Source of the DNA: Eledone cirrhosa
Lineage: Eukaryota
NCBI GenBank assembly: GCA_964016885.1
Contig: OZ024751.1
Coordinates: 19,034,001-19,098,000 of the forward strand
DNA: 64,000 nucleotides
Direction: 5' to 3'
Both the position numbers and the translations under genes were made by a program. This document shows positions 28,238-56,416 of the stretch, one piece after another. Position 1 is the stretch's first letter. Every line of letters starts with the position of its first letter. The notes below the pieces were generated by a model. The model was not told the origin of the DNA and made no database searches. It saw only the letters and a program-made list of their open reading frames with translations.

Positions 28238-28466
28238 TGTTCTTTTTATATTATATTTATGAACCCCTAACTGCTGTCAGAATCTTACGGGCGCCATTGT
28301 GAGATACACTATTTCTTGGGCATTTTCAACAGGCCAGAACCCATCACCTCCCACAGACGATCTCTTGTAGTAAAGCATAAAGCAAAGAAAGAGTGAGAGA
28401 GAATAATTGAAAAAGAGATTTTGAAGAATCTAGCCTAGTACTGCACTGGTATTATTATTATTATTA

Positions 28467-28836
28467 GGGCAGGGGATTGGCAGTATCGGTAGAGAGTCGG
28501 ACACCATGCTTTGAAGCATAGAGTTACGTCCCTTTATGATCTGAGTTAAAATCCCGCCGAGGTTAACTTTGCCTTTCATCCTTACGGGGTCGATAAAATA
28601 AAGTACCAGTAATGTACTGGATAATTGCTGGCCTTGTGCCTAAAGTAGAAACAATTATTAGGGCGGTGTATTGGCAGTATCGGTAGAGGGTCGGACGCCA
28701 TGCTTTGACGCATAGAGTTACGGCCCCTGCCATTCTGAGTTCAAATCCCGCCGAGGTTAACTTTGCCTTTCATCCTTACGGGGTCGATAAAATAAAGTAC
28801 CAGTAATACACTGGGTGTGGCAAAAGTAGAAACAAT
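28467..28836 (+). mobile_element. Tandem dimer of family A SINE
   Basis: Two head-to-tail copies (28467-28656 and 28661-28836) within (ATT)n. Confidence 0.9.
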
Positions 28837-34651: not shown

Positions 34652-35014
34652 GGCGGTGGATTGGCAGTATCGGTAGAAGCTCTGACGCCATGCTTTGCAG
34701 CAAAGTGTTACGGCCCTTTACGGTCTGACTTCAAATCCCGCCGAGGTGATCTTTGCCTTTCATCCTTACGGGGTCGATAAAATAAAGTACCAGTAATGTA
34801 CTGGGATAATTGTTGGCCTTGTGCCTAAAGTAGAAACAATTGTCGGTAGAAGATCTGACGCCATGCTTTACAGCAAAGTGTTACGGCCCTTTACGGTCTG
34901 AGTTCAAATCCCGCCGAGGTGATCTTTGCCTTTCATCCTTACGGGGTCGATAAAATAAAGTACCAGTAATGTACTGGGATAATTGTTGGCCTTGTGCCAA
35001 AAGTAAAAACAATT
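34652..35014 (+). mobile_element. Tandem dimer of family A SINE
   Basis: Two copies sharing diagnostic variants (CAGCAAAGTGTTACGG, GGTGATCTTTGCC). Confidence 0.9.
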
Positions 35015-43003: not shown

Positions 43004-43175
43004 TAGCATATAGGTCAGAACCGTTGTGCACATGCCGAAGTATTGGGGTCAGTAGGTATATATGGTACGCTCTCATCAGATAAAATACAAAGTTTGTTTT
43101 ATAAACTAACCAGGAAAAACTTGAACCGTTAAGATCTTCTTCCTGGATATGTCAATATTTATAAAACAAACTTTG

Positions 43176-43236
43176 TATTTTATCTGATGAGAGTGTACCA
43201 AAGGTTTGGTACCCTTGAAATATATATAATAGAATA
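43176..43236 (+). ncRNA. Minimal type I hammerhead ribozyme motif
   Basis: TATTTTAT-CTGATGA-GAGTGTACCAAA/TTTGGTACCCTT-GAAA-TATATA-TA-ATAGAATA. Confidence 0.75.
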
Positions 43237-43358
43237 AATATGGTTTTATAAATATAGTTTCCATTTATTTAATATCATTGATATAAATATATATATAATA
43301 GAATAAATATGGTTTTATAAATATAGTTTCCATTTATTTAATATCATTGATTGATATA

Positions 43359-55891: not shown

Positions 55892-56000
<109 letters not shown>

Positions 56001-56070
56001 AAAAAGAAATGAAATCGAAAATGCAACTGAAGTCTTATTTTTTTTTTAAAATATATATATTTATTTGGTT

Positions 56071-56108
56071 CCTTTACCGGTTTCGCAGTTCTTCTGCTTT
56101 TCAAAAGG
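56071..56108 (-). ncRNA. Minimal hammerhead with U3-A8 core (minus-strand twin)
   Basis: Exact reverse complement of 56163-56200. Confidence 0.7.
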
Positions 56109-56162
56109 TGAGTTGAGATGGAGGGTCTGTGGTTTTTCTCACAGACCCTCCATCTCAACTCA

Positions 56163-56200
56163 CCTTTTGAAAAGCAGAAGAACTGCGAAACCGGTAAAGG
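56163..56200 (+). ncRNA. Minimal hammerhead with U3-A8 core
   Basis: CCTT-TTGAAAA-GCAG-AAGAA-CTGC-GAAA-CCGG-TA-AAGG. Confidence 0.7.
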
Positions 56201-56333
56201 AACCAAATAAATATATATATATTTTTTTTTAAAATAAGACTTCAGTTGCATTTTCGATTTCATCTCTTTTTCTTTATACTTTCACTCGTGTAGGACACCT
56301 CGGTTATTTTTCATTTTGTAAAAAAAACCTCAC

Positions 56334-56416
<83 letters not shown>

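What the first reader, a model, noticed from the sequence alone, without database searches (positions are those of the whole stretch)
56071..56200. Twin hammerheads with a compensated U3-A8 core on opposite strands of one palindrome
Seen: CCTT-TTGAAAA-GCAG AAGAA CTGC-GAAA-CCGG-TA-AAGG with all three stems perfectly paired, once on each arm of a 285-bp inverted repeat. The core differs from CUGANGA only at positions 3 and 8. Known: C3 and G8 form a tertiary Watson-Crick pair in the active hammerhead, and U3-A8 is a tolerated covariant. Inference: this is a compensated variant that standard CUGANGA searches would miss, rather than decay. A transcript from either strand would carry one ribozyme together with its antisense.
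Basis: partly seen in the sequence, partly recalled or inferred. Interest (0 to 1): 0.75.

Follow-up and report, generated by a model that had tools for sequence, protein, structure and literature searches.

The report
Penelope retroelement stub with inverted hammerheads
This palindrome is two short end-pieces of a very abundant Penelope-type jumping gene joined head to head, each carrying an already published variant of a self-cutting RNA motif that is predicted to be locked inactive at this site, so it is an ordinary insertion by-product rather than a new ribozyme.

Summary
The motif is real on both arms of a 285-bp inverted repeat, but helix III is a 6-nt palindrome that can pair only between two same-strand copies. 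The repeat is a head-to-head pair of 5'-truncated pseudo-LTR ends of a Penelope-like element; parent copies with RT plus C-terminal GIY-YIG lie elsewhere in the genome. U3-A8 is the fixed family state, not decay: about 13,000 core copies, no C3-G8. There is no covariation within the family. U3-A8 cores and opposite-strand twin hammerheads in Penelope elements were published in 2014 (PMC4209133). Any transcript through this copy is predicted to fold as one long hairpin with no hammerhead. Across copies, 59 of 63 pairs have one short and one tailed arm, arms share subfamily bases, and 121 of 231 arms start at one site upstream of the ribozyme, so most templates were uncut RNA. Five of 58 shorter arms start exactly at the predicted cut, a weak hint of cleavage in vivo. 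The scan has noted such stubs before on other DNA. New member of a known kind; low interest.

The parts
55994..56143 (-). Left arm: 5'-truncated pseudo-LTR end of the Penelope-like element, short 3' end (no tail), running into (TA)n
   Evidence: same end type as 90 of 238 sampled arms
56071..56108 (-). Minimal type I hammerhead motif, U3 at 56104, A8 at 56099, predicted cut between 56075 and 56074
56128..56143 (.). Inversion junction: 4-nt complementary overlap around an 8-nt loop, at the family's 5'-end hotspot (likely RNA start)
56140..56346 (+). Right arm: 5'-truncated pseudo-LTR end with tail, running into (TA)n
   Evidence: same end type as 140 of 238 sampled arms
56163..56200 (+). Minimal type I hammerhead motif, U3 at 56167, A8 at 56172, palindromic helix III 56190-56195, predicted cut between 56196 and 56197
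56279..56346 (+). 68-nt tail; in full-length copies this stretch leads from the pseudo-LTR into ORF1
55948..55993 (.). Left (TA)n target tract
56347..56413 (.). Right (TA)n target tract

Best explanation
The palindrome is a head-to-head pair of short 3'-end copies of a Penelope-like retroelement inserted in a (TA)n tract, and it likely arose when the element's enzyme nicked both target strands and reverse-transcribed one uncut RNA twice. Shown: the family link to RT/GIY-YIG parents, the fixed U3-A8 core, the two fixed 3' ends, the 5'-end hotspot, and shared subfamily bases between arms. Inferred: the two 3' ends are two internal reverse-transcription start sites 68 nt apart; both cDNAs ran to the RNA's 5' end about 70 nt upstream of the ribozyme cut and were joined through a 4-nt complementarity. 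The hammerhead is the element's normal minimal motif, predicted to cleave slowly and only as a dimer of two same-strand copies (tandem elements or two RNAs). At this locus it is predicted to be silent, because any read-through RNA would fold into a roughly 138-bp hairpin.
For: Parent elements: the same end follows a 775-aa ORF with RVT_1 and GIY-YIG matches and precedes a 409-410-aa ORF1 in full-length copies. 59 of 63 adjacent head-to-head pairs have one short and one tailed arm, 0 have two of a kind, 4 were unclassified. The same two ends with TA-repeat loose ends appear in 4 of 4 laid runs. 121 of 231 arms start at reference 336-350. Arms of a pair agree at subfamily sites (46 of 47, 46 of 47, 64 of 68, 68 of 72) and differ by 3.0% against 5.7 +/- 0.25% for shuffled partners. 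In L031 the tailed arm is the inverted one while the ORF-bearing arm is short, which a plain fold-back of one cDNA cannot give. Helix I and II pairing probability is 0.0 in both palindrome transcripts, against about 0.21 and 0.59 in a single pseudo-LTR; two sense copies co-fold with helix III paired across copies at -20.3 kcal/mol. Published parallels: two RT start sites define the tail, both strands are nicked and extended, uncut RNA is the main template (PMC11167929); inverted truncated copy plus one-sided tail (PMC8557442, PMC3846280).
Against: No RNA data and no cleavage assay. The RNA start site is inferred only from DNA ends. Arm concordance could also come from gene conversion within the palindrome. 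About 43% of arms in pairs (48 of 112) carry a helix I variant that loses the fourth pair, so the motif is not perfectly kept across subfamilies. No sister family was recovered to show stem covariation. The clade rests on motifs, not on a tree.
Confidence: 0.85

Rival explanations
1. Fold-back self-priming: one cDNA snaps back on itself at the small junction hairpin and copies itself, giving the palindrome.
For: A 4-nt complementary overlap sits at the junction; arms share subfamily bases; self-priming was proposed for Penelope palindromes in PMC3846280.
Against: Fold-back cannot add a tail to the copied arm, yet in L031 the inverted arm is tailed and the long ORF-bearing arm is short; solo copies exist with either end; junction positions of the two arms vary independently.
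Confidence: 0.1
2. A self-spreading non-autonomous hairpin element (MITE-like or retrozyme-like) whose twin ribozymes process sense and antisense RNA.
For: Many near-identical palindromes exist: 40 scored copies at 95-100% identity to the right arm, most with an inverted partner.
Against: Junctions and spacer lengths vary from copy to copy, from a few bases to kilobases of parent sequence; which arm carries the tail varies; the hairpin abolishes hammerhead folding; the sampled copies are dispersed, not tandem units.
Confidence: 0.04
3. The motif is a decayed, non-catalytic relic kept only because it lies in the copied end of a successful element.
For: Most inserts came from uncut RNA (179 of 231 arms start at or after 336, but 121 of these start upstream of the motif); the helix I variant is common; ribozyme mutants did not impair insertion in vitro for another element (PMC11167929).
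Against: All core positions, G10.1-C11.1, the 3-8 pair and the palindromic helix III are intact, and 24 of 24 motifs found in 11 ORF-bearing loci have the full 4-bp helix I (loci chosen by likeness to one ORF); 5 of 58 short arms start exactly at the predicted cut.
Confidence: 0.2

Closest known systems
Minimal type I hammerheads of metazoan Penelope-like elements, including the U3-A8 variant of Schistosoma mansoni Cercyon elements (Cervera and De la Pena 2014, PMC4209133)
   Same: Location in the pseudo-LTR, 4-bp helix I, palindromic helix III needing a dimer, U3-A8 core, twin motifs on opposite strands a short distance apart, most copies from truncated elements.
   Different: Helix II is 4 bp rather than 7-8 bp; no extra unpaired base before helix II; helix III has a 6-nt palindrome as in their rotifer, shrimp and Drosophila-type variants; about 13,000 near-identical copies in one young family.
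C-terminal GIY-YIG Penelope-like elements with inverted 5'-truncated copy and one-sided tail (PMC8557442; PMC3846280), Neptune/Nematis type by the CX2-5CxxC linker
   Same: RT then GIY-YIG, DKG motif, C-X4-C-X2-C linker, two cysteines inside GIY-YIG, inverted truncated copy, tail on one end, (TA)n targets.
   Different: Tail is 68 nt rather than 30-40 nt; this locus keeps only about 150 and 205 bp of the element and no ORF. Clade not tested by a tree.
Poseidon element PAc of Anolis carolinensis (Frangieh et al. 2024, PMC11167929)
   Same: Two fixed 3' ends bounding a tail downstream of the hammerhead; AT-rich targets; uncut RNA as main template.
   Different: PAc has a C3-G8 core overlapping its start codon and belongs to the Penelope/Poseidon clade; here the motif lies upstream of ORF1 and the ends fall on TA-like words.

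Membership tests
Penelope-like elements (EN+, C-terminal) | RT domain followed by a C-terminal GIY-YIG endonuclease in the parent | tested here: met
   L031: RVT_1 E 5e-07 and GIY-YIG E 7.6e-05, both above cutoff; L247: GIY-YIG above cutoff, RVT_1 28.7 bits just under 29.6
Penelope-like elements (EN+, C-terminal) | Pseudo-LTRs, direct or inverted, flanking the ORF | tested here: met
   Direct copies flank the ORFs in L032, L245, L247; inverted 5' copies in L031, L033, L244, L248, L251
Penelope-like elements (EN+, C-terminal) | Optional tail on one end of the insertion | tested here: met
   59 of 63 pairs have one short and one tailed arm; tail 68 nt, longer than the published 30-40
Penelope-like elements (EN+, C-terminal) | CCHH motif with two cysteines between GIY and YIG | tested here: met
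Neptune/Nematis clades | CX2-5CxxC linker before the endonuclease | tested here: met
   C-X4-C-X2-C in P0001 (definition)
Neptune/Nematis clades | RT phylogeny placing it in the clade | not tested
   No named reference elements were in hand; homologues carry no clade names
Minimal type I hammerhead of Penelope-like elements | Core 3-9 with a 3-8 Watson-Crick pair, GAAA, U16.1, H17, G10.1-C11.1, helices I and II | tested here: met
Minimal type I hammerhead of Penelope-like elements | Palindromic helix III able to pair only in a dimer | tested here: met
   Hexamer self-duplex -8.3 kcal/mol; dimer fold pairs it across copies; prediction only
Minimal type I hammerhead of Penelope-like elements | Self-cleavage as a dimer | not testable with these tools
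   Needs an assay; the genomic 5'-end hint is inconclusive
Non-LTR retrozymes | Tandem protein-free units each with a same-strand type I hammerhead | tested here: not met
   This copy is an inverted pair; sampled short copies are solo or inverted, and same-strand pairs flank ORFs; definition

The most novel reading that the evidence does not exclude
The ends of thousands of dead stubs form a fossil map of the element's RNA: its start, two reverse-transcription start sites, and a minority (about 2% of arms) that begin exactly at the hammerhead cut. That would be genomic evidence that a natural U3-A8 minimal hammerhead of a Penelope-like element cleaves in the germ line, which RNA-seq failed to show for the Anolis element.
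Probability: 0.35. Interest if true: 0.5.

Novelty: new member of a known kind. Interest (0 to 1): 0.22.

Why it matters
As found, little: the variant core, the opposite-strand twins and the inverted-end structure are all in print. The family is young and very abundant (many intact 775-aa ORFs at 98-100% identity), which makes it a good natural data set for the open question of how Penelope-like elements make inverted ends. The strict one-short, one-tailed rule and the shared subfamily bases support double priming on one RNA. If the excess of ends at the cut site holds up, it would bear on whether these ribozymes cut in vivo.

Tried and rejected
Rfam: no hammerhead hit; the weak hits over the palindrome are microRNA-precursor models matching a long hairpin, all below gathering score. 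Sister families with C3-G8: a looser pattern with the same helix III gave 2 hits against 140 for the reversed control, and a 66%-identical outside protein returned only this family, under a stricter first look, so cross-family covariation was not shown here. RNA: no RNA holder listed; the laid runs are contigs of unrecorded kind, and no splice joint at the candidate intron was listed; this is no evidence either way. Cut-site pile-up by genome-wide patterns: 213 hits at the cut against 146 and 129 at two upstream control sites; 10 of 30 inspected cut-site hits were internal indels or duplications, and by eye the controls also hold indel variants; TA microhomology at the cut confounds it; the downstream control (17 hits) was stricter and not comparable. 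The wider 8-nt window after the cut was enriched in the first sample (7 of 25) but not in the second (2 of 33). A test of which arm carries the junction loop failed (36 of 36 unclassified). Arms from different parent copies: not seen. Lunse et al. (RNA Biol, dimer cleavage) and Przybilski and Hammann 2007 were not held; I saw only their titles in reference lists.

Full report
Observation. The window is microsatellite-rich DNA from a 3.0-Gb genome. The 38-nt motif stands at 56163-56200 (+) and 56071-56108 (-) inside an inverted repeat spanning 55994-56278, with 81 perfect inner pairs around an 8-nt loop. Helices I and II are 4 bp each. Helix III is a self-complementary hexamer; the monomer fold forms only helices I and II and is no more stable than shuffles (z -0.94). 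The right arm continues 68 nt beyond the repeat, and both ends run into (TA)n. Rfam gives no hammerhead hit.

Family and core. A 33-nt pattern with positions 3 and 8 left free has 6,275 exact matches (control 0); the 100 listed are all U3-A8. Of these, 9 are C3-A8 and 2 are U3-G8. Without helix I the count is 12,999, with no C3-G8 copy. In run X1 no other letter was listed at position 3 or 8 at the 1% threshold. So U3-A8 is the inherited family state.

Parent element. Divergent pairs with longer spacers contain more of the parent. L031 has a 770-aa frame with RVT_1 and GIY-YIG above Pfam cutoffs, a DKG motif, a C-X4-C-X2-C linker and two cysteines inside GIY-YIG. By the definitions in PMC8557442 (passages) this is a C-terminal-endonuclease Penelope-like element of Neptune/Nematis type; no tree was built. 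Full-length copies read pseudo-LTR with hammerhead and tail, a 409-410-aa ORF1 without Pfam match, an overlapping 775-aa RT-EN frame, and a second pseudo-LTR. All 89 scored ORF matches were 98-100% identical, so the family is young. Same-strand hammerhead pairs about 4.7 kb apart occur in L245 and L247.

Anatomy of the stubs. Positions below count on one genomic copy (L032, 559 nt; core at 381, predicted cut after 410). I sampled arms by a downstream 22-mer (17,244 matches): the first 100 hits on contig C1, then 90 hits of three rare variants. Of 238 arms, 90 end near 490, 140 near 558 and 8 elsewhere. Of 63 adjacent head-to-head pairs, 59 have one of each end, none has two of a kind and 4 were unclassified. 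After dropping 7 internal deletions, 121 of 231 arms start at 336-350, 52 start further upstream and 58 at 351-470. Loose ends in laid contigs agree. In 72 pairs, the arms agree at subfamily sites (46 of 47, 46 of 47, 64 of 68, 68 of 72) and differ by 3.0% against 5.7% for shuffled partners; the T/A run at 437-442 is often discordant and was left out of that divergence.

Mechanism. PMC11167929 (parts 1-2 of 4 read) shows for an Anolis element that both target strands are nicked and extended, that two internal start sites define the tail, and that uncut RNA is the main template. My data fit this. I infer that each target strand primed at one of the two start sites on the same RNA, both cDNAs ran to the RNA's 5' end near 338-346, and they joined by short complementarity, here 4 nt. 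The likeness to twin priming of L1 is recalled, not from a call. Plain fold-back (proposed in PMC3846280, passages) cannot explain L031, where the inverted arm has the tail and the ORF-bearing arm lacks it. Gene conversion between arms is not excluded.

Ribozyme state. Folding the 352-nt insert gives one long hairpin (-218.5 kcal/mol); helix I and II pairing probability is 0.0 on either strand, against about 0.21 and 0.59 in a single pseudo-LTR. Two sense copies co-fold with helix III paired across them. The two motifs at this locus are on opposite strands and cannot be that dimer. Against strict conservation, 48 of 112 arms in pairs carry a variant that loses the fourth pair of helix I and could gain a fifth.

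Does it cut? Position 411, the first base after the predicted cut, is the commonest single start among the 58 short arms (5; 3 of 25 and 2 of 33; P 1.2e-3, 0.031 and 1.3e-4 under a uniform null). The null is too simple: 354 and 419 have 4 each, the wider window did not replicate, and genome-wide patterns gave 213 hits against 146 and 129 at control sites, all mixed with indel variants. I count this as a weak hint; at most about 2% of arms.

What is known. PMC3088659 (passages) reports natural U3-A8 covariation and cites in vitro activity. PMC4209133 (parts 1-2 of 4 read; 2 of 3 supplement files searched) reports U3-A8 minimal hammerheads in Schistosoma Penelope-like elements (about 1,300 hits), twin motifs 100-700 bp apart on opposite strands, no monomer activity and low dimer activity. 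PMC8557442 describes inverted truncated copies and one-sided tails. PMC6765202 (passages) reviews the dimer model. bioRxiv 10.64898/2026.07.22.740005 (part 1 of 5) gave the retrozyme definition. One search (listing only) showed no title on genomic 5' ends at the cut site; that is a thin basis for absence. Earlier scan notes describe like stubs in this and other genomes; they are unchecked and not counted as support.

Verdict. A new member of a known kind, with a well-supported structural origin and untested catalysis. Interest 0.22.

Noticed in passing
window 56194-56293 (+); L032 6218-6056 (-): Candidate 5'-UTR intron: a strong polypyrimidine tract and AG acceptor at 56293, with possible donors inside helix III (56194, two bases before A17) or just after the inferred RNA start (which would put the whole hammerhead in the intron). 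The acceptor region was close to invariant in 62 sampled arms. No RNA data to test it.
   Followed up: partly
L245, L246, L247, L248 (ORF1/ORF2 overlap, e.g. L247 3992-4079): ORF1 and the RT-EN frame overlap in a -1 relation with a T6A slippery-type heptamer near the start of the overlap, suggesting a programmed frameshift.
   Followed up: partly
window 43040-43245: A different hammerhead-like motif with a canonical C3-G8 core and palindromic helix III at 43184 (+), preceded by a partial inverted copy and followed by a short duplication and (TA)n; probably another Penelope-type stub.
   Followed up: no
window 3338-3382 (+): Canonical-core type I hammerhead-like motif with short helix III.
   Followed up: no
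window 56825-56992: Element with 17-bp inverted ends between microsatellites; the minus strand shows a helix II and GAAA-like stretch cut off inside the core, possibly a stub of another family (by eye).
   Followed up: no
window 57171-57290: Imperfect 120-bp palindrome next to (TA)n and (CT)n tracts; family unknown.
   Followed up: no
L220, around 1460-1526: A copy with a deletion that removes almost exactly the hammerhead between the two helix I strands.
   Followed up: no
window 2799-3175, 28460-28814, 34670-35014: Two-copy tandem units of 173-194 bp with related consensus, likely one SINE-like family.
   Followed up: no
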